The notes under the pieces are model-generated. The model was not told the DNA's origin, made no database searches, and worked only from the letters and a program-made list of their open reading frames with translations. A program made the position numbers and the translations under genes. Positions 9,759-34,217 of a DNA stretch of 64,000 nt are shown here, piece after piece. Source of the DNA: a virus; IMG/VR virus record IMGVR_UViG_3300034166_000560. One strand, 5' to 3'. Numbering within the stretch: position 1 is the stretch's first letter; each line of letters begins with the position of its first letter.

Positions 9759-11585
9759 TTATTCGTTTGGAAAATTGTCAATTAGATTGACACCATTCTC
9801 AGTAAGAACATTGATGAGATCGTTTCTGTATTCTTCTAGCTTTGCTTTATCAGAGCCAGACAATGAACAATTGTAACCGTCTGCAAGCTGCGAATCTGGA
9901 ATTACTCTGATTCCACCAGTGTTCTCTGTATTAGTGAAATTGTTAGACAATGGATTCTTAGGATTCAACGGAACAGAAGTGTAATTGGTATAAATGATAC
10001 GGAATCCATAAGAGTTTTCGCTATAAGTTACGACTGGCGTAATATATTCAATTGCAGATAGCTTAATAAGACCCTTTGCAACAGGAATTCTATAATATTT
10101 CTCAGCCATTTTAATCTCCTTGTATTGGCAGAACAATTATGGTGTATTTATTAGAACTCTTGAATTACCATTTTCTTGTCAACGCAGGTATATAGATGAC
10201 CCGTGTTATTCTTACCGTAGGAATAAGTTCTATCGAGATAGACGCCACCAGCCTCTGCGCAGCGAATAGACTCTTGACTTACCTGTTCTTGACGACCACT
10301 ATCGAGATAGATAGCAATTCCAATGAACACAATCAATCCAAATAATAAGCTGCCGACCATTAGACTTTCAGCTTTCGGTGTCATTAGTATTTCTCCAGAG
10401 CGTCGAGCAGCAGCTTCGCCATATCAACTGATATTGCTACCTGCTCATATGTTCTATTTCTACTGACTATATCATCCAGCTTATCACGGAGATAATCAAT
10501 ACTACGGAGATAGGTATCGTCGAGATGCGCCGCTCGTTGCGCCTCTTCAAACCACTGTTTCTCTTGCGTCATTATTCGTGCACCTCAAAGATATGCCAGA
10601 CCAGCTGAGTAAGATGTCCAGTCTGGACTGTCTTAACATATTCATAATGCTTCTTATCGTAGTCTACCATCTCGAAGCCAGTACCAAATACATGGAATAC
10701 ATACTTACGCTTCTCTTTCTTAGGATTAACAATCGCCCAGATCATAGGCATTCCGCCCTGATTCTGAATATCGAGGATCTTTGCGCCCCTCGGCATTTCA
10801 ATCTCATAAATGGCGTTGTGATGGATATCTACGCCCAGCGGATATTTGTATATCATTTTCATTTTGTAACCTTCCTACATTCCATTTCTGTAAAGTTAGG
10901 CAGATGCACCCACTCGTAACCAGCAGAGATACAATCCTTCTGTCTCATCGTAAACAGATAGTTGGAATATGATGTTGATGCCGCAATTGCGATCGCAGCA
11001 ATAAGAAAACATCCAATAAAAATCAAAAACCCTTTGCCTTCGTCGCTCATCGTTTTACTTCCATTACCGATAGTTGGTGTTTAATGGCGCTGGAATTTAC
11101 AAAGAATTCCGCCCAATAAGTATTATCAAACACTGCGATAACAACCTTATGACTACCCCAAGGGCTATAAACTACAGCATATAGTTTAGACTTCTTACCC
11201 TTTTCCCAGGTAACGTCGAATGATTCTTCTTTAACCTTTAAGAGTTTCATTTCTTTGTCTCATATACAATGATAGTCTTTTCCACAGGAATTACCTCTGG
11301 ACATTCTATTTCGTCAGGCTCATATTCATATGGGTCTTCGTCTTGATATTCAGTAGCACCTGTGCTATAGGAAGTTTTATATAACTTATCCTCAAACTTG
11401 AAGATCATACTATATTTAAGTGACCATCTAGTATGACCAGTCATTTTTTGTTCAATGACTTCAAAGCCATCAACATAACATTCATATGCTAATTCTTGTA
11501 GGAGTTCTTTCTTGAATTTCATTATGGTTTCTCCACTACTACATAATTGGCGTTGATACGTTGATTTTGCAATGAATCTTTCCAT
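9759..11585 (-). CDS. run of small hypothetical proteins (9759-10109, 10151-10384, 10384-10572, 10572-10862, 10859-11050, 11047-11250, 11247-11522)
   Basis: Translationally coupled ORFs; two have N-terminal TM helices. Confidence 0.6.
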
Positions 11586-19842: not shown

Positions 19843-20001
19843 TGATTACTGACGAACTACGCCAGATTGCATACAATGAAGGTTGTCAGGCTTTCGCTGA
19901 TGATGTAAATCTTATGGATAATCCATATAATGGTGTTTCACATACTCTCAAAGTATTTTGGAGCCATGGTTGGTGGGCTATGTTTTACGACGAGAACTAA
20001 G

Positions 20002-20337
20002 ATGAAATATAAACTCTATCTGGATGACCTGCGTTATCCTGACCTGCATCCCGATTGGAGGATTGCTCGTAACTACCATGATGCTGTGTGGATGGTTACG
20101 AACTATGGACTGCCATATTATATCTCCTTTGATCATGATCTGAACGATTTTGCTGACTTCTATACTCATCGAATGGAGTTCACTGGCTATGACTTTGCCA
20201 AATGGTTCTGTAATTGGGTGATGGATAATGATGTATGTCTGAATGATTTTGATTACTGGGTTCACTCTGCTAACCCTGTCGGTGCAGAGAACATCCGCCG
20301 CTATATGGCAAACTTCATAAAGGATCGTTATGTCTAA
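20002..20337 (+). CDS. cyclic-phosphate-processing receiver-domain protein
   Basis: YLDD.R, ISFDHDL, TGYD, VHSANPVG. Confidence 0.75.
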   Translation: MKYKLYLDDLRYPDLHPDWRIARNYHDAVWMVTNYGLPYYISFDHDLNDFADFYTHRMEFTGYDFAKWFCNWVMDNDVCLNDFDYWVHSANPVGAENIRRYMANFIKDRYV

Positions 20338-21463
20338 TAGTATGCAAAATCTCTATAAGATCGACACCAAAGGCAAGACTCGTGTTTGGTGGATCGAATA
20401 CGATGAAGAGAAGTATCGCACTCATGCAGGTATTCTTGACGGTAAGATTGTAGTTTCTGGTTGGCAGCGCCCGACAGAAAAGAATGTCGGTCGTTCAAAC
20501 GCTACTACTGTTGCTGAGCAAGTTCTTGCCGAGGTCAAAGCAGAATATGAGAAGAAGCTACATCAGGGCAAATATCATTTCAGTCCTTCTGGTGCCGAAC
20601 AGGGTGCTAAGTTTATTGAATGTATGCTTGCTTCTAAGTTCGATGATAAGAAGCATAAACAGTATCCGTATTTCTCTCAACCGAAGCTGGATGGTATTCG
20701 CTGTTTGATTAGCAAAAACGGTATGCAGTCACGTCAGGGTAAACCTATTACCTCTTGTCCGCATATTATGGAGGCGCTTGATCCGTTCTTCCAGGCATTC
20801 CCTGATGCTATTCTTGATGGCGAACTATACAATCATGATCTTCGTGATAACTTTGAAAAGATTGTATCGCTTGTTCGTAAGACTAAGCCGACGACTGCTG
20901 ATTATATCGAAGCATCAAAGCTGGTTCAGTATCATGTTTATGATTGTGTGATGGATGAGCCGTTCATGGATCGTTTGAGTTTTATCAGCAAGCACTTCGG
21001 TACTTACAATTCGTTCGGTGACCGTTACTATCCTATCGTTCGTGCTGTTCAAACTCAGTTCATTAATGTCGAGCAAGACATCGAAAAAATGCTCGGAGAA
21101 TATCTCGAAATGGGTTATGAAGGTCAGATACTCCGTGTTCCCAATTCTCCCTATGAAGGTAAGCGTTCAAAGAACCTTATCAAGCATAAAGAGTTTCAGG
21201 ACGAAGAGTTTGTTATCGTCAATATTGAAGAAGGATTAGGTAACTGGGAAGGTTATGCTAAATCTGTTGAGATTCGTCTTGAAGATGGTACTACTCAGAA
21301 CTCAGGCGTTCGTGGTAATCAAGAGTTTATGGAGCAGCTGCTAAAGGATAAAGAGCAGTATATCGGCACGGAAGTAACAGTTCGTTATCAGAATAAGACT
21401 GCTGATGGTAAGCTACGTTTTCCTGTCGTTGTTGCTTTCTGGAAAGGTAAAAGAAATCTGTAA
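20330..21463 (+). CDS. ATP-dependent DNA ligase (gp30-like)
   Basis: KLDGIR, DGELY, EG..LR, K.K, LRFP. Confidence 0.92.
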   Translation: MSNSMQNLYKIDTKGKTRVWWIEYDEEKYRTHAGILDGKIVVSGWQRPTEKNVGRSNATTVAEQVLAEVKAEYEKKLHQGKYHFSPSGAEQGAKFIECMLASKFDDKKHKQYPYFSQPKLDGIRCLISKNGMQSRQGKPITSCPHIMEALDPFFQAFPDAILDGELYNHDLRDNFEKIVSLVRKTKPTTADYIEASKLVQYHVYDCVMDEPFMDRLSFISKHFGTYNSFGDRYYPIVRAVQTQFINVEQDIEKMLGEYLEMGYEGQILRVPNSPYEGKRSKNLIKHKEFQDEEFVIVNIEEGLGNWEGYAKSVEIRLEDGTTQNSGVRGNQEFMEQLLKDKEQYIGTEVTVRYQNKTADGKLRFPVVVAFWKGKRNL

Positions 21464-22003: not shown

Positions 22004-22672
22004 ATGTTACATTTTCCAGCATTTTGTATTGACAATTTTTATAACAATCCAGACGCTATTAGAGAATACGCTCTATCTCTGGATTTTAATAACATTGGGC
22101 CATGTCAGGGCAGACGAACCGCTCCGCTACACGAAATTAATCCAGAATTTTCCGATGTTTTTGCTAAACAGTTGCTATCTGTATTTTACGATATGGGTAG
22201 GAACGATGTTCAATGGATGATCAGATCTCATTTCCATTTACACAGAGTAACAGACAATTCTACGTTTGCTAAGAACACAGATCAAACGCTTCACGTTGCT
22301 CACAAATATAGAGATTTCGTTCCTAGCTATGAATCAGAGATACCTACTGCTGTCCATTTAGACGATAACAGTTTTTTCTCTGGCGTGGTTTATTTGAATC
22401 CTATTGCCGAGCCTCATGCTGGAACTGCCATTTATAGAGTTGTAGAAAACACTGATCCTATCAGATATGGTAATGGAGATATCGAAAAAGAAACTGTAAT
22501 AGAATCTGCTAATTTCAAACAGGTATATAATCGTTTGGTTGTTTTTGATGGCAAATCATACCATGGAAGAACAGGCGACAACACGCAAAGCGAAAGGCTA
22601 ACTCACGTTTTCTTTGCGCATCGTATAAACGCCAATATTCCAACACCATTAAATAGATTTAAGGTTTTGTGA
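22004..22672 (+). CDS. Fe(II)/2OG oxygenase-like protein (paralog 1)
   Basis: IDNFY..P..IRE.AL, HLD, YNRLVVFDG..YH, RLT.VFF. Confidence 0.75.
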   Translation: MLHFPAFCIDNFYNNPDAIREYALSLDFNNIGPCQGRRTAPLHEINPEFSDVFAKQLLSVFYDMGRNDVQWMIRSHFHLHRVTDNSTFAKNTDQTLHVAHKYRDFVPSYESEIPTAVHLDDNSFFSGVVYLNPIAEPHAGTAIYRVVENTDPIRYGNGDIEKETVIESANFKQVYNRLVVFDGKSYHGRTGDNTQSERLTHVFFAHRINANIPTPLNRFKVL

Positions 22673-22934
22673 GTTTATCTGCATTATTAATAAAATTTCT
22701 AATACTTTCAATAGAGGACTTACATGTCAAGTTGTTCTTTTGTAGTTGGACTATCAACTTCGCAACCTGAGAATCAGTCAGAGTCTGCCACTTCGGAAAC
22801 TGTTTCACCACAGGACAGTAATACATCGCCTCGGATGGATGTGCGACCATATATTTGTATGATGTTACAATCTGCTCCTGACTATTACAAGAAGCCAGTA
22901 GAACTGCAATTAACAATGGAATAATTTTTTTCAT
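22659..22934 (-). CDS. o-spanin-like lipoprotein
   Basis: Lipobox LLASC; overlaps the i-spanin stop. Confidence 0.65.
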   Translation of the reverse strand: MKKIIPLLIAVLLASCNSQEQIVTSYKYMVAHPSEAMYYCPVVKQFPKWQTLTDSQVAKLIVQLQKNNLTCKSSIESIRNFINNADKLTKP

Positions 22935-23317
22935 TGGCTTAACTCTTTAATTGTATTTTTGAGGATATCAGAAGATGGACGATCGTTGCCCTTTCCAATT
23001 TCCACGTCAATTCGAGACTCGATTGTTTTTAGCTTATTTTCTAATGCTTGTTTTTGGATTTCTAATTTCGCTACTTCTTCATCTCTATTTTTAAAAATAG
23101 CTTGTTGTTGTTCGATAAACAAATCTTTGTCTTTGATAGATTGCTGAAGCTGTTTGATATTATACGCTTGAAGCGCTGTTTGTTTTTCCAGGTCTACGAT
23201 CTGACGATGCTTGGAATATAATCCACCAGCTAACCCTCCAATGATTATAAGTATAGAAAGCCACTTGATGGCTCCAGAAGATATGAGAGATAATATTATG
23301 TTCATGATAAACTCCAT
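22931..23317 (-). CDS. i-spanin-like protein
   Basis: N-terminal TM plus coiled coil. Confidence 0.65.
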   Translation of the reverse strand: MEFIMNIILSLISSGAIKWLSILIIIGGLAGGLYSKHRQIVDLEKQTALQAYNIKQLQQSIKDKDLFIEQQQAIFKNRDEEVAKLEIQKQALENKLKTIESRIDVEIGKGNDRPSSDILKNTIKELSQ

Positions 23318-23332
23318 TTTTACGGTGTATTT

Positions 23333-23887
23333 ATGAAGTTTCCATTATTTTGTATTGATGATTTTTATGAAAATCCAGAAGCTATTAGAGAATACGCTCT
23401 TGGATTAGAGTATGAAGATCAAACTCCATATGATAAAAGATCTCAATGTCTATCTGAAATAAATCCAGAGTTATTCTCCAGATTTTGCGATAAACTATTT
23501 TCTGTTTTTTACGACTCACCCGTTAGGTATAAAGTATATACAGCTTTCCATATTCATTTCAGAAAAAGCGATGATCCTGATTCTCCTGACAATAATGGTT
23601 TACTACACAAAGACCCAAATGTGTTGATGGGCGGTGTTATATATTTGACACCTAATCCAAATCCAAAAGCTGGAACGACTGTATATAAATCTTTTGAAAA
23701 GCCTCTTGAAGAGGTAATTACTTTCCAAAACAAATATAATAGACTTATAGGTTTTGACGGTAGCAGATATCCTCATAGAGTCACCACTAGGTATATAGAA
23801 AATGATTATAGATTATCGCAAGTATTTTTTATAGAGTTTATGCCGAAAAATACAGTTTTTCCGCTAGAAAGGTTACCGAAAATATGA
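23333..23887 (+). CDS. Fe(II)/2OG oxygenase-like protein (paralog 2)
   Basis: HKD, YNRLIGFDG..YPH, RLSQVFF. Confidence 0.75.
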   Translation: MKFPLFCIDDFYENPEAIREYALGLEYEDQTPYDKRSQCLSEINPELFSRFCDKLFSVFYDSPVRYKVYTAFHIHFRKSDDPDSPDNNGLLHKDPNVLMGGVIYLTPNPNPKAGTTVYKSFEKPLEEVITFQNKYNRLIGFDGSRYPHRVTTRYIENDYRLSQVFFIEFMPKNTVFPLERLPKI

Positions 23888-24516
23888 AAAAATTTCCTAC
23901 TTTTTGCGTTGATGATTTTTATGAATATCCAGACGAGGTTAGAGAATTCGCTCTTCAACAAACATTTCATAAAATGCCAAGTTGTATCGGATTGAGAACT
24001 TCTCCTATGAAAGACGTTCAACCAGAATTTGACGACTATTTCAATAAAAAATTACTATCTATGTTTTATGATATATTAGATCCTTCTTTACAGTATATCG
24101 TCAAAAACGTTTTTCATAAAAATTATCCAGTAGAAAGTAAAAATTATACTCTCTATAAACCAGAAGAGTTATTATGGGGTAGCCGATATGGTGGAACATT
24201 TCGTAGTGATAATAACGCTCATCTGGATCCAAATAATGTCATTTCTGGAGTTATATTTTTAAATAAAGATGAAGAAATGCACGCAGGGGTGGCTATCTAT
24301 AGACCAGTAGAATATTCTGATGAACATGATGGCGCATTGTTACAAGAGACAGCCAGATTTTCTCAAATCTTTAATAGGCTGGTAGCTTTTGACGGCGAGA
24401 CTTGGCATGGAAGAGTTGGTGATAACACAAGAGAAGATAGATTATGTCAGGTGTTCTTTGTTCAACATGTTTCTGATCAGCTTTCTCCTATAGAAAAAAT
24501 GAGACAGATAGTATGA
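23884..24516 (+). CDS. Fe(II)/2OG oxygenase-like protein (paralog 3)
   Basis: HLD, FNRLVAFDG..WH, RLCQVFF. Confidence 0.75.
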   Translation: MKKFPTFCVDDFYEYPDEVREFALQQTFHKMPSCIGLRTSPMKDVQPEFDDYFNKKLLSMFYDILDPSLQYIVKNVFHKNYPVESKNYTLYKPEELLWGSRYGGTFRSDNNAHLDPNNVISGVIFLNKDEEMHAGVAIYRPVEYSDEHDGALLQETARFSQIFNRLVAFDGETWHGRVGDNTREDRLCQVFFVQHVSDQLSPIEKMRQIV

Positions 24517-24737
24517 AAAACATACCTAATATAGAAAACTTGATAGTTGTTTCAGAGAAGATAGTTAAAGAAGCATGGGAAGCTATCGATAAAGAACCAG
24601 ATAGCGGATTTGCAGTCGTGTTACAAGCAGCAGAAGAATATAAGGCTGCTAATATGACACCGATGTTTATTCTAGATCAACGCAATATGGACATCTATTG
24701 TTTCGCAAAAGAAACTTTCGGAAAAAAGCTCCATTAA
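24513..24737 (+). CDS. hypothetical protein
   Basis: Coupled ORF. Confidence 0.6.
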   Translation: MKNIPNIENLIVVSEKIVKEAWEAIDKEPDSGFAVVLQAAEEYKAANMTPMFILDQRNMDIYCFAKETFGKKLH

Positions 24738-24748
24738 GAAAATAGTAT

Positions 24749-24779
24749 TTGACTTTTGTATGGGGTTATAGTATAAATA
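24749..24779 (+). promoter_or_regulatory. overlapping sigma70 and T4 late promoter for pmoC
   Basis: TTGACT-N17-TATAAA, where the -10 box is part of TATAAATA (24772-24779). Confidence 0.7.
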
Positions 24780-24854
24780 AACTCAAGAGTGGCGGTTTCA
24801 CCGTCACCAAAGGCGAAACTGACCACTTGATTTTTTCTCTATGGAGAATAATAT

Positions 24855-25622
24855 ATGAGTACAGTAACTACTACAAGCGCTGCAGTTGCAGCAAAGTCAG
24901 ATGTCGTTGATCTCCGTGGAATGTGGATTGGGCTTGCCCTTCTAAACACATTCTATCTCATTGTCCGTATCTATGAACAAGTGTTCGGCTGGAGGGCTGG
25001 ACTTGATTCATTTGCGCCCGAGTTTCAGACATATTGGATGTCTATTCTCTGGACAGAGATTCCGCTTGAGTTAGTCTCAGGACTAGCACTTGCTGGTTAT
25101 CTTTGGAAGACAAGAGATCGAGATATTGACGCCGTGACTCCTCGTGAGGAAATGCGTCGTCTAGTAGTTCTTGTTCAGTGGCTTGTTGTGTATGCTGCTG
25201 CCATTTATTGGGGCGCATCCTTCTTTACTGAACAGGATGGTACATGGCATATGACTGTTATTCGTGATACTGACTTTACTCCAAGTCATATCATTGAGTT
25301 CTACATGTCATATCCAATTTATAGCGTAATTGCAGTTGGCGCTTTCTTCTATGCAAGAACTCGTATCCCATACTTCTCACATGGTTACAGCCTTGCATTC
25401 TTGATTGTCGCTATTGGACCATTTATGATTATTCCAAACGTTGGACTCAACGAATGGGGTCATACTTTCTGGTTCATGGAAGAACTATTCGTAGCACCAT
25501 TGCATTGGGGCTTCGTATTCTTCGGCTGGATGGCACTTGGTGTGTTCGGCGTTGTTCTCCAAATCCTAGGACGTGTTCATGCTTTGCTAGGGCGTGATGG
25601 CGTTAAGTTACTAGCAGAATAA
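24855..25622 (+). CDS. pmoC: particulate methane monooxygenase subunit C
   Basis: GLDSFAPEFQTYW, EQDGTWH..RDTDFTPSH, NEWGHTFWFMEELFVAPLHWGF; metal-ligand residues intact. Confidence 0.97.
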   Translation: MSTVTTTSAAVAAKSDVVDLRGMWIGLALLNTFYLIVRIYEQVFGWRAGLDSFAPEFQTYWMSILWTEIPLELVSGLALAGYLWKTRDRDIDAVTPREEMRRLVVLVQWLVVYAAAIYWGASFFTEQDGTWHMTVIRDTDFTPSHIIEFYMSYPIYSVIAVGAFFYARTRIPYFSHGYSLAFLIVAIGPFMIIPNVGLNEWGHTFWFMEELFVAPLHWGFVFFGWMALGVFGVVLQILGRVHALLGRDGVKLLAE

Positions 25623-25629
25623 AAAAGTT

Positions 25630-25660
25630 GAGGGGAAGGCGTTGACTTTCCCCTCTTCTC
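25630..25660 (+). terminator. hairpin after pmoC overlapping the hsp20 -35 box
   Basis: GAGGGGAAG...CTTTCCCCTC enclosing TTGACT. Confidence 0.55.
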
Positions 25661-25675
25661 ATATTATATTATGTC

Positions 25676-25728
25676 TGCGTTGCCTAATGGAACGCAATCT
25701 TAAACTCGCTCTAAAGGAGAATTAAATG
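25676..25728 (+). promoter_or_regulatory. ROSE-like RNA thermometer
   Basis: TGCGTT...AACGCA hairpin, then CTCGCT pairing with the AGGAG SD around a bulged G. Confidence 0.6.
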
Positions 25729-26181
25729 ACAAACGATGTTTTCAATTTGTCCAATCTAAACAAGCATTTTGTAGGTTTTGATAAGGTTCTAGACACTCTA
25801 ACTAATGTTAATGATACCTACACCAAGGCAATCCTAAACAACTCCCCAAACTGGCCTCCATATAATATCGTAAAGATTGATGATAACAACTACAGCATTG
25901 AATTGGCTGTGGCTGGTTTTGGTAAGCATAATCTAGATATCGAATTAGCTAATAACACTCTCGTAGTTAAGGGTGGATTTACTGTCGACGAGATTGATCC
26001 CATTGACAATCCAGTCCAGTATCTATGGAAGGGGATTGCTGATCGTATGTTTACCCGCAAGTTTACTCTTGCTGACACGGTTGAAGTGAAGAACGCAGAA
26101 TATGTTAATGGTATGCTTAAGATTTTCCTAGAGAACGTAGTTCCAGAGGAAAAGAAGCCGAAGAAAGTAGACATCAAGTAA
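25726..26181 (+). CDS. small heat-shock protein Hsp20 (IbpA-like)
   Basis: PPYNI, IELAVAGF, GIA.R.F.RKF.LAD, NGML.I. Confidence 0.95.
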   Translation: MTNDVFNLSNLNKHFVGFDKVLDTLTNVNDTYTKAILNNSPNWPPYNIVKIDDNNYSIELAVAGFGKHNLDIELANNTLVVKGGFTVDEIDPIDNPVQYLWKGIADRMFTRKFTLADTVEVKNAEYVNGMLKIFLENVVPEEKKPKKVDIK

Positions 26182-32507: not shown

Positions 32508-32999
32508 ATGGGTAAACACATTCATCATATTATACCAAGATATATGGGAGGTACTAACGATCCTTCAAACCTTATAGAACTTTCGGTCGAAGAACACGCC
32601 GAAGCCCATAAAAAATTATGGGAAGAGAATGGTAACTGGCAAGATCTCATAGCTTGGAAATCTCTTTCTGGACAAATAAGTGGAGATGATCTGAGACGTG
32701 AAATAACAAGATTGACTTGGCTTGGCAGGAACCATTCTCCAGAATCTATTGAAAAGATAAAAAAGGCTCGTTCTAAGCAGATTACTACAGAAGAGACTAG
32801 AAAGAAAATGTCTTTGGCCAGAAAAGGTAAAAAATTAAATTGGGAAACTAATACAACCACCCCAGAGGCTAATGCTAAGAGAAGTGAAACGATGAAAGGT
32901 CGTCCAAAAGAAAAAATACAATGCCCACACTGTAAAAAGGTTGGAGGCAAACCACAAATGATTCAATGGCATTTTGATAATTGTAAGGAAAGAATTTAA
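32508..32999 (+). mobile_element. free-standing HNH homing endonuclease with NUMOD3-like repeats
   Basis: HHIIP...GG.N...NL..L...EH..AH; H.PESIEKIK and EETRKKMS repeats; late promoter at 32482-32489. Confidence 0.85.
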
Positions 33000-33631
33000 T
33001 GCGTGTATATATCGGGCCATACACTACATGGCTAGGACCATACCAGATCGCTGACAAGATTCCTTTTGTCAGCGAGGAAACCAGAGACAAGATTGGCGAA
33101 TGGCTTGCCAATACTTGGGTTGCTGATGTTTGTAGCTGGATTGATAGCAAGAAAGAACGTAAGATAAAGATTCGTATTGACAAGTATGATACTTGGAATA
33201 TGGATAGCACTCTTGCTTTGATTATCGTTCCAATGTTAAAGCAGCTAAGAGAGACCAAGCATGGTGCTCCGATGGTTGACAACGACGACGTTCCAGTGCA
33301 TATGCGTTATGATGATGCTGCTCCTGTCTATAATGAGAACGACGAATACATTTATCCTACAACTCAGTGGTTTATGCATAAGTGGGATTGGGTTCTTAAT
33401 GAAATGATCTGGGCGTTCGAGCAGTATGACACTGACTGGGAACAACAGTATGTCATCCAAAAGGGTGAGATTGATTGGGAAGACTATCCTGAAGACGAAG
33501 GTAAAGATGCTATTCCTCTTCGTTGGAAAAAAGAATGCATAATTAATTTCGAAGGTCGTCAGGCTCATCAAGAACGAATTGCCAATGGCATTAGACTGTT
33601 CGGTAAGTATTATCAAAATCTGTGGGACTGA
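32999..33631 (+). CDS. conserved hypothetical T4-like protein
   Basis: IDKYDTW.MD.TLA, LFGKYYQNLWD. Confidence 0.75.
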   Translation: MRVYIGPYTTWLGPYQIADKIPFVSEETRDKIGEWLANTWVADVCSWIDSKKERKIKIRIDKYDTWNMDSTLALIIVPMLKQLRETKHGAPMVDNDDVPVHMRYDDAAPVYNENDEYIYPTTQWFMHKWDWVLNEMIWAFEQYDTDWEQQYVIQKGEIDWEDYPEDEGKDAIPLRWKKECIINFEGRQAHQERIANGIRLFGKYYQNLWD

Positions 33632-33632
33632 A

Positions 33633-34217
33633 ATGAAAGAACATTTTATCAATCAACTTGACAATTTTATTTGTGGGTGGTATATTGATAAGAATGTTTG
33701 TGGTGATATGATTGAATATCATCGTAATTGTGAACATAAACGTCCTGGAGCTTATGGCAAAAATAAACAAATTGATAAATCTATTAAAGATAGTATCGAT
33801 TGCGTATTAGAAGATAATAATCTCTGTAAAAGATATTATTCTGAATTACAAAATTGCGTTGATTTGTATGTCAAAAAATATCCAGGTTGTAACGTTGGAC
33901 CTGCATGGAGAAATACTGAGAATGCAAATCTTCAGTATTATCCTCCAGGCGGTGGGTATCACGTTTGGCACACTGAAAGATATTCAATGAAACCGCCTAT
34001 CGTTTATCGTCATTTAGTATTTTTGACTTATTTGAATGACGTAAACGATGGTGGCGAAACAGAATTCATGCACCAAAAAATAAAAATAAAACCAGAAACT
34101 GGGTTGACATTAATATGGCCAGTTGATTGGACTTACGTTCATAGAGGTGTTGCTTCTTTGACTGAAGAAAAGTATATTTACACTGGTTGGTTTAATTTTT
34201 ACGAGGAGAACGTATGA
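33633..34217 (+). CDS. Fe(II)/2OG oxygenase (prolyl-hydroxylase-like)
   Basis: WHTE, YLNDV..GGET.F, WP..WT..HRG, KYI.TGW. Confidence 0.88.
   Translation: MKEHFINQLDNFICGWYIDKNVCGDMIEYHRNCEHKRPGAYGKNKQIDKSIKDSIDCVLEDNNLCKRYYSELQNCVDLYVKKYPGCNVGPAWRNTENANLQYYPPGGGYHVWHTERYSMKPPIVYRHLVFLTYLNDVNDGGETEFMHQKIKIKPETGLTLIWPVDWTYVHRGVASLTEEKYIYTGWFNFYEENV

What the first reader, a model, noticed from the sequence alone, without database searches (positions are those of the whole stretch)
24855..25622. Phage-encoded stand-alone pmoC
Full-length PmoC with intact Asp/His/His and Asn/His/His motif residues and no pmoA or pmoB in the window. pmoC-carrying freshwater phages have already been reported, so this is important but not new. 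It implies a methanotroph host and possible modulation of methane oxidation.
Basis: partly seen in the sequence, partly recalled or inferred. Interest (0 to 1): 0.7.

Follow-up and report, generated by a model that had tools for sequence, protein, structure and literature searches.

The report
Phage-borne methane monooxygenase subunit gene
A large T4-like freshwater phage carries its own intact, selectively maintained copy of pmoC, one subunit of the methane-oxidising enzyme of its probable Methylocystis host; the gene is real and well supported, but such phages have been known since 2020.

Summary
The ORF at 24855..25622 (+) encodes a full-length 255-aa PmoC. It is about 93% identical to the solved Methylocystis PmoC structures and 92-95% identical to PmoC of Methylocystis MAGs. 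All six metal ligands are present. There is no pmoA or pmoB in the window, in 80 related phage loci or in five near-complete related phage genomes.

The surroundings are a T4-like myovirus (PolB, UvsX, DnaB, primase, RNR, virion protein). An assembly chimera is excluded. The gene has phage-like GC3 (0.37, against 0.74-0.90 in bacteria). The same gene order recurs in about 30 independent contigs, and 6.8 kb is identical in two separate JGI assemblies. AmoC is excluded. dN/dS of 0.04-0.09 shows purifying selection.

This is a member of the published pmoC-phages (Chen et al. 2020), including the known Hsp20 neighbour, so it is already known.

Three smaller points seem to go beyond that paper. First, pmoC is an autonomous unit with its own sigma70-like/T4-late promoter, a conserved and probably structured 70-nt leader found only in front of pmoC, and a terminator-promoter composite. 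Second, the block from promoter to stop codon is far less diverged between phages than its flanks. Third, the PmoC and PolB similarities disagree. Together these suggest recent exchange of the cassette between phages.

The parts
24749..24779 (+). pmoC promoter: sigma70-like TTGACT, 17-nt spacer, then a -10 that is also a T4-late-type TATAAATA (24772-24779)
   Evidence: Sequence. The TTGAC-N16-18-TATAWW pattern occurs 8 times in the window against 0.88 expected, and 0 of 100 shuffles reach 8. TATAAATA lies within 140 nt upstream of pmoC in 30 of 48 distinct phage contexts. Function is inferred from motifs only.
24785..24854 (+). Conserved 5' leader. Closing helix 24787-24792 with 24823-24828, second helix 24793-24799 with 24815-24821, U-rich tract 24831-24836, and a small hairpin 24835-24848 that includes the Shine-Dalgarno (24843-24847)
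   Evidence: MFE -23.6 kcal/mol, z -3.65. The same architecture appears in 17 distinct leaders, with closing-helix probability 0.88-0.98. 97.4% of cells are paired, but with one-sided changes only. The motif occurs once in the window and only in front of pmoC elsewhere. No Rfam family matches.
24855..25622 (+). pmoC, 255 aa, stand-alone
   Evidence: GC3 0.37. dN/dS 0.04-0.09 against other phage copies.
25630..25670 (+). Terminator-like G-rich/C-rich hairpin (25630-25655) whose loop and 3' arm carry the -35 of a second sigma70-like promoter (25642-25670) that serves hsp20; a PeSL-like terminator-promoter composite
   Evidence: Fold of -20 kcal/mol, with equivalent hairpins after pmoC in nearly all related phages. 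Promoter match 10 of 12. For the PeSL concept see PMC4122927.
25726..26181 (+). hsp20 (small heat-shock protein), the conserved downstream neighbour
   Evidence: Pfam HSP20, E 3.1e-16. It lies directly downstream of pmoC in about 30 contigs. Chen et al. note this adjacency.
24513..24737 (+). 74-aa ORF of unknown function, the conserved upstream neighbour
   Evidence: No Pfam hit. It is found upstream of pmoC at 36-64% identity in about 30 contigs.

Best explanation
This is a genuine auxiliary metabolic gene of a T4-like freshwater myovirus of the published pmoC-phage type. The host is most likely a Methylocystis-like alphaproteobacterial methanotroph.

Shown: the gene is intact, has long been resident in phage genomes, is under strong purifying selection, keeps every metal ligand, and stands alone as its own transcription unit.

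Inferred: during infection the phage makes PmoC from its own promoter, probably both early (host sigma70) and late (T4-type TATAAATA). The protein inserts into the host's intracytoplasmic membranes and joins host-made PmoA and PmoB. This replaces or adds to the host's PmoC. Methane oxidation, and with it the supply of energy, reductant and carbon, then continues while phage particles are made. The analogy is cyanophage psbA, and also the extra orphan pmoC copies of methanotrophs.
For: Identity and integrity.

The best are Methylocystis MAGs at 95% over residues 17-255. On the tree the window sits in a phage-only clade of 25 (SH-aLRT 97) among Methylocystaceae PmoC.

Long residence in phages: GC3 is 0.37, against 0.74-0.90 in bacterial copies. 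Synonymous sites are saturated against bacterial copies.

Selection: dN/dS is 0.04-0.09 among phage copies.

Phage context.

Real linkage: the order 74-aa ORF, pmoC, hsp20, PolB, UvsX recurs in about 30 contigs. The exact protein lies on 17 contigs read, and 6768 nt are 100% identical in two JGI assemblies.

Stand-alone state: no pmoA or pmoB in the window or in five 98-100% complete relatives, and the positive controls did find both genes.

Own expression signals. Chen et al. found phage pmoC among the most highly expressed genes, together with late structural genes, in gamma-type phages.
Against: There are no expression data for this phage. No experiment has shown that a phage PmoC assembles with host PmoA and PmoB or raises activity. 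The host is inferred from PmoC similarity and from co-occurrence of relatives only; no CRISPR or tRNA link was obtained. The first 16 residues do not align with bacterial PmoC. Some related phages carry an internally deleted pmoC, so the gene can be lost.
Confidence: 0.85

Rival explanations
1. The phage PmoC does not augment methane oxidation. Instead it manipulates the host, for example by upsetting pMMO subunit stoichiometry, by acting as a copper or membrane-stress decoy, or by excluding other phages.
For: Only one subunit is carried. The N-terminus differs from the host's. A neighbouring Hsp20 suggests handling of membrane or protein stress. Nothing measured here tells augmentation from interference.
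Against: All six metal ligands are invariant, and there are no phage-specific substitutions at positions conserved in bacteria. dN/dS is as low as expected for a working enzyme subunit. A decoy would not need an intact active site.
Confidence: 0.08
2. The gene is a bacterial pmoC joined to a phage contig by mis-assembly, or it comes from a mis-binned bacterial fragment.
For: Chen et al. report that phage scaffolds often break at pmoC because of similar bacterial copies.
Against: GC3 is 0.37, against 0.74-0.90 in every bacterial copy, and nucleotide identity to bacterial copies is only about 73%. The gene order is conserved in about 30 contigs whose flanks have diverged. The sequence is identical over 6.8 kb in two assemblies. 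The conserved phage-type promoter and leader abut the gene.
Confidence: 0.01
3. The protein is an AmoC and the host is an ammonia oxidiser.
For: The NCBIfam equivalog AmoC_BACT scores 361 bits, above its cut-off of 319, so automatic annotation would call it AmoC. amoC-carrying lake phages have been reported (preprint listed).
Against: The score is 524 bits to Methylocystis PmoC structures, against 215-222 bits to solved AmoC chains. The nearest genomic copies are followed by pmoA and pmoB in Methylocystis and Methylosinus genomes. The tree places it inside Methylocystaceae PmoC.
Confidence: 0.01
4. The gene is a decaying passenger with no present function for this phage.
For: Related phages carry fragmented, partial or internally deleted pmoC.
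Against: In this window the frame is intact. dN/dS is 0.04-0.09, all ligands are kept, and the promoter, leader and terminator are conserved.
Confidence: 0.03

Closest known systems
pmoC-phages of freshwater lakes (Chen et al. 2020, Nat Microbiol, PMC7674155), alpha-type group of 160-175 kb
   Same: T4-like myovirus related to cyanophages. GC is about 40%. pmoC stands alone, is over 90% identical to Methylocystis PmoC and keeps its copper ligands. The termini diverge from the host's. HSP20 lies next to pmoC. An exact-match contig measures 158 kb and relatives are 162-174 kb.
   Different: Nothing essential differs. I could not establish whether this is one of their named genomes, because they are not in the phage collection searched. 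That paper does not contain the words promoter, UTR, upstream, terminator or selection, so the cassette anatomy and the contrast in synonymous divergence seem to add to it.
Orphan (stand-alone) pmoC copies of Methylocystaceae genomes
   Same: Single pmoC genes without pmoA or pmoB. 32 of the 80 closest bacterial copies are orphans.
   Different: The phage copies do not fall in the divergent orphan clade (16 rows, SH-aLRT 99). They sit with the operon-type sequences. The bacterial leaders share no similarity with the phage leader.
Cyanophage psbA (D1) as an auxiliary metabolic gene
   Same: One core membrane subunit of the host's energy-capturing enzyme, nearly identical to the host's, carried by a T4-like myovirus. 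By inference it keeps host energy metabolism running during infection.
   Different: The enzyme and host differ. For psbA, expression and incorporation have been shown by experiment (my knowledge). For pmoC they have not.
PeSL promoter/stem-loop composites that flank shuffled genes in T4-like phages (Arbiol 2010, PMC2839356; Comeau 2014, PMC4122927)
   Same: A near-consensus sigma70 promoter is combined with a G-run/C-run stem-loop at the boundary of an accessory gene (25630-25670). Identity to other phages drops sharply at the cassette edges.
   Different: Only the downstream boundary has the stem-loop. The other seven promoter-like sites in the window have no strong stem-loop. Recombination at these sites is inferred, not shown.
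amoC of viruses of ammonia-oxidising archaea and of lake amoC-phages
   Same: Only the C subunit of a copper membrane monooxygenase is carried by the virus (preprint listed).
   Different: A different branch of the family and different hosts. This protein is a PmoC.

Membership tests
PmoC, subunit C of particulate methane monooxygenase (Pfam PF04896, TIGR03078) | Full-length match to the family profile | tested here: met
   PF04896 E 6.6e-108, profile 4-244 of 245. TIGR03078 scores 336 bits against a cut-off of 281.
PmoC, subunit C of particulate methane monooxygenase (Pfam PF04896, TIGR03078) | Asp/His/His ligands of the CuC site | tested here: met
   Asp128, His132 and His145 are invariant in all 113 distinct sequences compared. 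They are aligned to the solved Methylocystis structures.
PmoC, subunit C of particulate methane monooxygenase (Pfam PF04896, TIGR03078) | Asn/His/His ligands of the CuD site | tested here: met
   Asn199, His203 and His217 are invariant.
PmoC, subunit C of particulate methane monooxygenase (Pfam PF04896, TIGR03078) | Closer to methanotroph PmoC than to nitrifier AmoC | tested here: met
   524 bits to Methylocystis PmoC against 215-222 bits to AmoC chains. The nearest genomic copies sit in pmoCAB operons of Methylocystaceae.
PmoC, subunit C of particulate methane monooxygenase (Pfam PF04896, TIGR03078) | Assembles with PmoA and PmoB into an active enzyme | not testable with these tools
   A complex prediction would pass merely by likeness to solved structures (93% identity), so none was run.
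pmoC-phages (Chen et al. 2020) | Gene lies in a large T4-like phage genome | tested here: met
   UvsX, DnaB, primase, ligase, RNR, thymidylate synthase and a virion protein. PolB is 48% identical to cyanomyovirus gp43. An exact-match contig of 158,369 bp.
pmoC-phages (Chen et al. 2020) | pmoC present without pmoA or pmoB | tested here: met
   Window, 80 phage loci and five 98-100% complete relatives with working positive controls. The rest of this phage's own genome was not available.
pmoC-phages (Chen et al. 2020) | PmoC over 86-90% identical to PmoC of co-occurring methanotrophs | tested here: met
   95% over residues 17-255 to Methylocystis MAGs. One of them carries metagenome number 3300042861 in its name, and that metagenome also yielded the related pmoC-phage contig L037.
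pmoC-phages (Chen et al. 2020) | Comes from a methane-bearing freshwater lake | tested here: inconclusive
   The exact sequence is in JGI metagenomes 3300043539 and 3300002835. The tools do not give sample names. I believe, from memory, that these belong to the Lake Mendota series.
Bacterial AmoC (NCBIfam NF041641) | Groups with AmoC of ammonia oxidisers | tested here: not met
   The profile scores above its cut-off, but similarity to solved AmoC is far weaker than to PmoC. The profile name is misleading here.
PeSL terminator-promoter composites of T4-like phages | G-run/C-run stem-loop joined to a near-consensus early promoter at the edge of a variable gene | tested here: met
   25630-25670. 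This holds for the downstream edge only.
PeSL terminator-promoter composites of T4-like phages | Recombination at these sites moves the flanked gene | tested here: inconclusive
   Identity to L004 is 82-100% (mostly 90% or more) from 24750 to 25600 and 52-74% just outside. dS of pmoC is 0.24, against 0.8 to saturated for neighbours. PmoC and PolB similarities disagree. This fits exchange but does not show the mechanism.

The most novel reading that the evidence does not exclude
The unit from promoter through structured leader and pmoC to the terminator-promoter composite is a mobile expression cassette. It has recently been exchanged between diverged pmoC-phage backbones. Its 70-nt leader, found only in front of pmoC, is a new cis-acting RNA element. 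It could be a 5'-terminal stabilising stem-loop, an attenuator, or a translational switch that hides the ribosome-binding site. It would set when and how strongly phage PmoC is made.
Probability: 0.4. Interest if true: 0.45.

Novelty: already known. Interest (0 to 1): 0.3.

Why it matters
Phage-borne pmoC may change how much methane lake methanotrophs consume before they lyse, so it bears on greenhouse-gas budgets. That point was made in 2020. This window adds a clean, well-controlled example. It also gives concrete handles for experiments: a defined promoter, a conserved leader and terminator, natural deletion variants, and signs that the cassette moves between phages.

Tried and rejected
- No whole genome is held for the window.
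- The INPHARED phage collection has no PmoC match, so the window could not be matched to a named published genome.
No expression or 5'-end data could be obtained and read laying was not used.
- Rfam gave nothing for the leader.
- The formal pair count on the leader's closing helices found no change on both sides of any pair, and it did not exceed the shuffles on covariation. The structure therefore rests on conservation, thermodynamics and one-sided changes only.
- I looked for homology between the phage leader and the bacterial pmoC leaders (operon-type and orphan-type) and found none.
- I looked for phage-specific substitutions at positions conserved in bacteria and found none.
- TATAAATA is not enriched in the window as a whole (6 found, 5.55 expected).
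- Only one of the eight promoter-like sites has a PeSL-type stem-loop.
- Most IMG/VR hits to the leader pattern were chance matches in coding DNA.
- Structure and complex predictions were not run, because 93% identity to solved structures makes them uninformative.

Full report
**1. The observation.** The ORF 24855..25622 (+) exists as described. It has an ATG start, 255 codons, and a GGAGA ribosome-binding site 7 nt upstream. It matches Pfam AmoC (PF04896) over the whole profile (E 6.6e-108) and TIGR03078. Among solved structures the best matches are the PmoC chains of Methylocystis sp. Rockwell and strain M (4phz_K, 3rfr_C; E about 1e-157, aligned from residue 2 to 255, about 93% identical). 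Next come Methylosinus trichosporium, then the gammaproteobacterial PmoC chains (about 1e-100), and only then AmoC chains (about 1e-63 to 1e-65). The two metal sites map to Asp128/His132/His145 and Asn199/His203/His217. All six residues are invariant in 34 alpha-type phage, 18 gamma-type phage and 61 bacterial distinct sequences. One caution on naming: the NCBIfam equivalog 'AmoC_BACT' also scores above its cut-off, so pipeline annotation would call this AmoC.

**2. The surroundings.** The window is a T4-like myovirus. It encodes family-B DNA polymerase, UvsX-like recombinase, DnaB-like helicase, primase, ATP-dependent ligase, ribonucleotide reductase, thymidylate synthase, a virion structural protein, a lytic transglycosylase-containing protein, a carbamoyltransferase, an M15 peptidase and an Rz/Rz1-like spanin pair. 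The polymerase is about 48% identical to gp43 of Synechococcus myoviruses. Directly downstream of pmoC lies hsp20 (25726..26181). tblastn with Methylocystis PmoA and PmoB, taken from locus L085 and checked by Pfam, finds nothing in the window (best E 2.2) or in the flanks of 80 phage loci. Profile searches for PmoA and PmoB are also empty in five 98-100% complete related phage genomes. The same searches find both genes in two Methylocystis genomes.

**3. Not a chimera, and not recently acquired.** The gene's GC is 0.445 and its GC3 is 0.37, close to the window's GC of 0.40. Every one of 80 bacterial copies has GC3 of 0.74-0.90, and every one of 80 phage copies has 0.21-0.47. Against the closest bacterial genes the protein is 89-92% identical over its full length, but the DNA is only about 73% identical and synonymous sites are saturated. 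The order 74-aa ORF, pmoC, hsp20, (M15 peptidase), PolB, UvsX recurs in about 30 independent IMG/VR contigs whose flanking proteins have diverged to 36-91% identity. The exact protein is on record on 17 contigs read (54 index blocks). The 6768 nt around it are 100% identical in two separate JGI assemblies, one of them a 158,369-bp contig.

**4. Placement and host.** The best 80 are almost all Methylocystaceae or Beijerinckiaceae. The top ones are Methylocystis MAGs at 95% identity over residues 17-255; the first 16 residues do not align. One of these MAGs carries the metagenome number 3300042861 in its name. That metagenome also gave the related pmoC-phage contig L037. A maximum-likelihood tree of 159 rows was rooted on the gamma-type phage copies. 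It puts the window in a phage-only clade of 25 rows (SH-aLRT 97). A second phage-only clade has 28 rows (SH-aLRT 88). Both lie among Methylocystaceae PmoC in a poorly resolved backbone. The phage copies group with operon-type sequences, not with a distinct clade of 16 divergent orphan copies (SH-aLRT 99). The host call rests on this similarity and on co-occurrence, as in Chen et al..

**5. Selection.** Among phage copies dN/dS is 0.04-0.09. No position conserved in bacteria carries a phage-specific residue, and the window has no unusual residue at conserved positions. The protein is therefore kept as a working PmoC.

**6. Comparison with what is known.** Chen et al. 2020 (PMC7674155) described 22 pmoC-phages of 159-527 kb. 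They include alpha-type phages of 160-175 kb and 38-41% GC from Lake Mendota, Crystal Bog and Lake Rotsee. The reported features match this window:
- stand-alone pmoC with intact copper ligands;
- termini that differ from the host's;
- HSP20 next to pmoC in six genomes;
- kinship with cyanophages;
- predicted Methylocystis hosts.

A 20-year Lake Mendota study lists pmoC among the most abundant viral auxiliary genes. The window is a member of this known kind. The proposed mechanism, augmenting or sustaining host pMMO, is theirs and remains untested by experiment.

**7. What seems to be added here: the expression unit.** Upstream of the gene is a near-consensus sigma70-type promoter (24749-24779) whose -10 is at the same time a T4-late TATAAATA. 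The stricter pattern TTGAC-N16-18-TATAWW occurs 8 times in the window against 0.88 expected. A second copy lies just after pmoC and serves hsp20. TATAAATA is not enriched overall. However, all six copies are on the coding strand, and at least four lie shortly upstream of ORF starts. It also occurs within 140 nt upstream of pmoC in 30 of 48 distinct phage contexts, gamma types included. That fits the late co-expression seen by Chen et al..

Exactly 5 nt after TATAAATA begins a 70-nt leader. Its two ends are invariant across 17 distinct versions, while its interior varies in sequence and length. All 17 fold into the same plan:
- a closing helix that starts 2 nt from the presumed 5' end (probability 0.88-0.98);
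- a second short helix;
- a variable inner hairpin;
- a U-rich tract;
- a small hairpin that includes the ribosome-binding site.

The window's leader has an MFE of -23.6 kcal/mol (z -3.65). The evidence for pairing is conservation plus one-sided changes (G-U, A-U and G-C at one pair). There are no changes on both sides of a pair, and the formal count does not beat its controls. The motif occurs once in the window. Elsewhere it is found only directly upstream of pmoC: in 36 of the first 80 loci and in 19 further IMG/VR contigs. It is never in bacterial loci. No Rfam family matches.

A second group of alpha-type pmoC-phages has a different leader with two hairpins. Three of its pairs show compensatory double changes among only seven sequences. 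My preferred reading is a 5'-terminal stem-loop that stabilises the mRNA, with possible control of translation through the hairpin over the ribosome-binding site. An attenuator or a protein-binding site are alternatives. All of these are inference.

After the stop codon comes a strong G-run/C-run hairpin (25630-25655, -20 kcal/mol). Its loop and 3' arm carry the -35 of the hsp20 promoter. Equivalent hairpins follow pmoC in nearly all related phages. This resembles the PeSL terminator-promoter composites that flank shuffled genes in T4-like phages (PMC4122927). The other promoter-like sites of the window lack such a stem-loop.

**8. Signs of cassette exchange.** The window's PmoC is most like that of L001-L004 (98%), yet their PolB is only 65% identical. 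The phages with the most similar PolB (L020 at 87%, L006-L008 at 83%) have PmoC at 91-94%. Between the window and L004, dS is 0.24 for pmoC. For the neighbours it is 2.9 (74-aa ORF), 2.1 (hsp20), 2.5 (M15), saturated (PolB), 1.2 (UvsX) and 0.8 (DnaB). In four of the five other relatives compared, pmoC also has the lowest dS; the exception is L020, where dnaB is lower. Identity to L004 in 50-nt bins is 82-100% (mostly 90% or more) from 24750 to 25600 and falls to 52-74% just outside. The block therefore begins at the promoter and ends at the stop codon. Recent recombination of the cassette between co-infecting phages explains this best. Unusually strong constraint on synonymous and leader sites is the alternative. 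Chen et al. mention recombination near a partial pmoC in some Lake Mendota phages.

**9. Verdict.** Interest is modest. The cassette anatomy, the pmoC-specific leader and the evidence for exchange between phages are small additions that can be tested.

Noticed in passing
window 24785-24854; also L001, L005, L006, L010, L012, L014-L018, L020, L028, L029, L036-L039 just upstream of pmoC: A 70-nt leader with invariant ends and a variable interior, predicted to form a 5'-terminal stem-loop plus a hairpin over the ribosome-binding site. It is found only in front of phage pmoC and has no Rfam match.
   Followed up: yes
L024, L027, L030, L035, L040, L048, L049: 85 nt upstream of pmoC: A second, unrelated pmoC leader type with two hairpins. 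Three base pairs show compensatory double changes among seven sequences.
   Followed up: partly
L260 (about 9765-9990 on the reverse strand) and L264 (815-1040): The same promoter and leader are followed by an in-frame, internally deleted pmoC of 52 aa: the N-terminal 37 residues are joined to the C-terminal 15, and the active site is lost. This resembles the population variant that Chen et al. report for CB_5.
   Followed up: partly
window 32508-34217: Three ORFs lie between uvsX and dnaB: an HNH/NUMOD3 homing-endonuclease-like ORF (32508..32999), an unknown ORF, and a 2OG-Fe(II) oxygenase (33579..34217). In relatives L004, L007, L013 and L037, uvsX and dnaB are adjacent.
   Followed up: partly
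window 22004-24516: Three paralogous ORFs of the DUF6445/phrog_1644 type (22004..22672, 23333..23887, 23884..24516). The first is separated from the other two by an Rz1/Rz-like spanin pair on the opposite strand (22659..23317). Relative L020 shows one matching region.
   Followed up: no
window 5967, 14473, 24749, 25642, 28531, 33658, 50895, 56289: There are eight near-consensus sigma70-type promoters (TTGAC, 16-18 nt, TATAWW) against 0.88 expected by chance, each on the strand of the nearby genes.
   Followed up: partly
window 19930-21463: A protein with a cyclic-phosphate-processing receiver domain (cREC_REC, E 2.1e-20) lies directly upstream of, and overlaps, the ATP-dependent ligase gene. 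This could be an RNA or DNA end-repair pair.
   Followed up: no
L081-L160 (bacterial loci): Of the 80 closest bacterial pmoC copies, 32 are orphans without pmoA or pmoB. Some are identical to the operon copy of the same genome, and 16 form a separate divergent clade. The orphan and operon copies have different conserved leaders.
   Followed up: partly
L140 (JAQTNG010000322.1): A 4.5-kb contig binned as Elusimicrobia carries a Methylosinus-like pmoC-pmoA pair. It groups with Methylosinus and Methylocapsa, so it is probably mis-binned.
   Followed up: no
window 24855-25622: The NCBIfam equivalog model for bacterial AmoC scores this PmoC above its trusted cut-off (361 against 319 bits). Automatic annotation would therefore mislabel phage and Methylocystis PmoC as AmoC.
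   Followed up: yes
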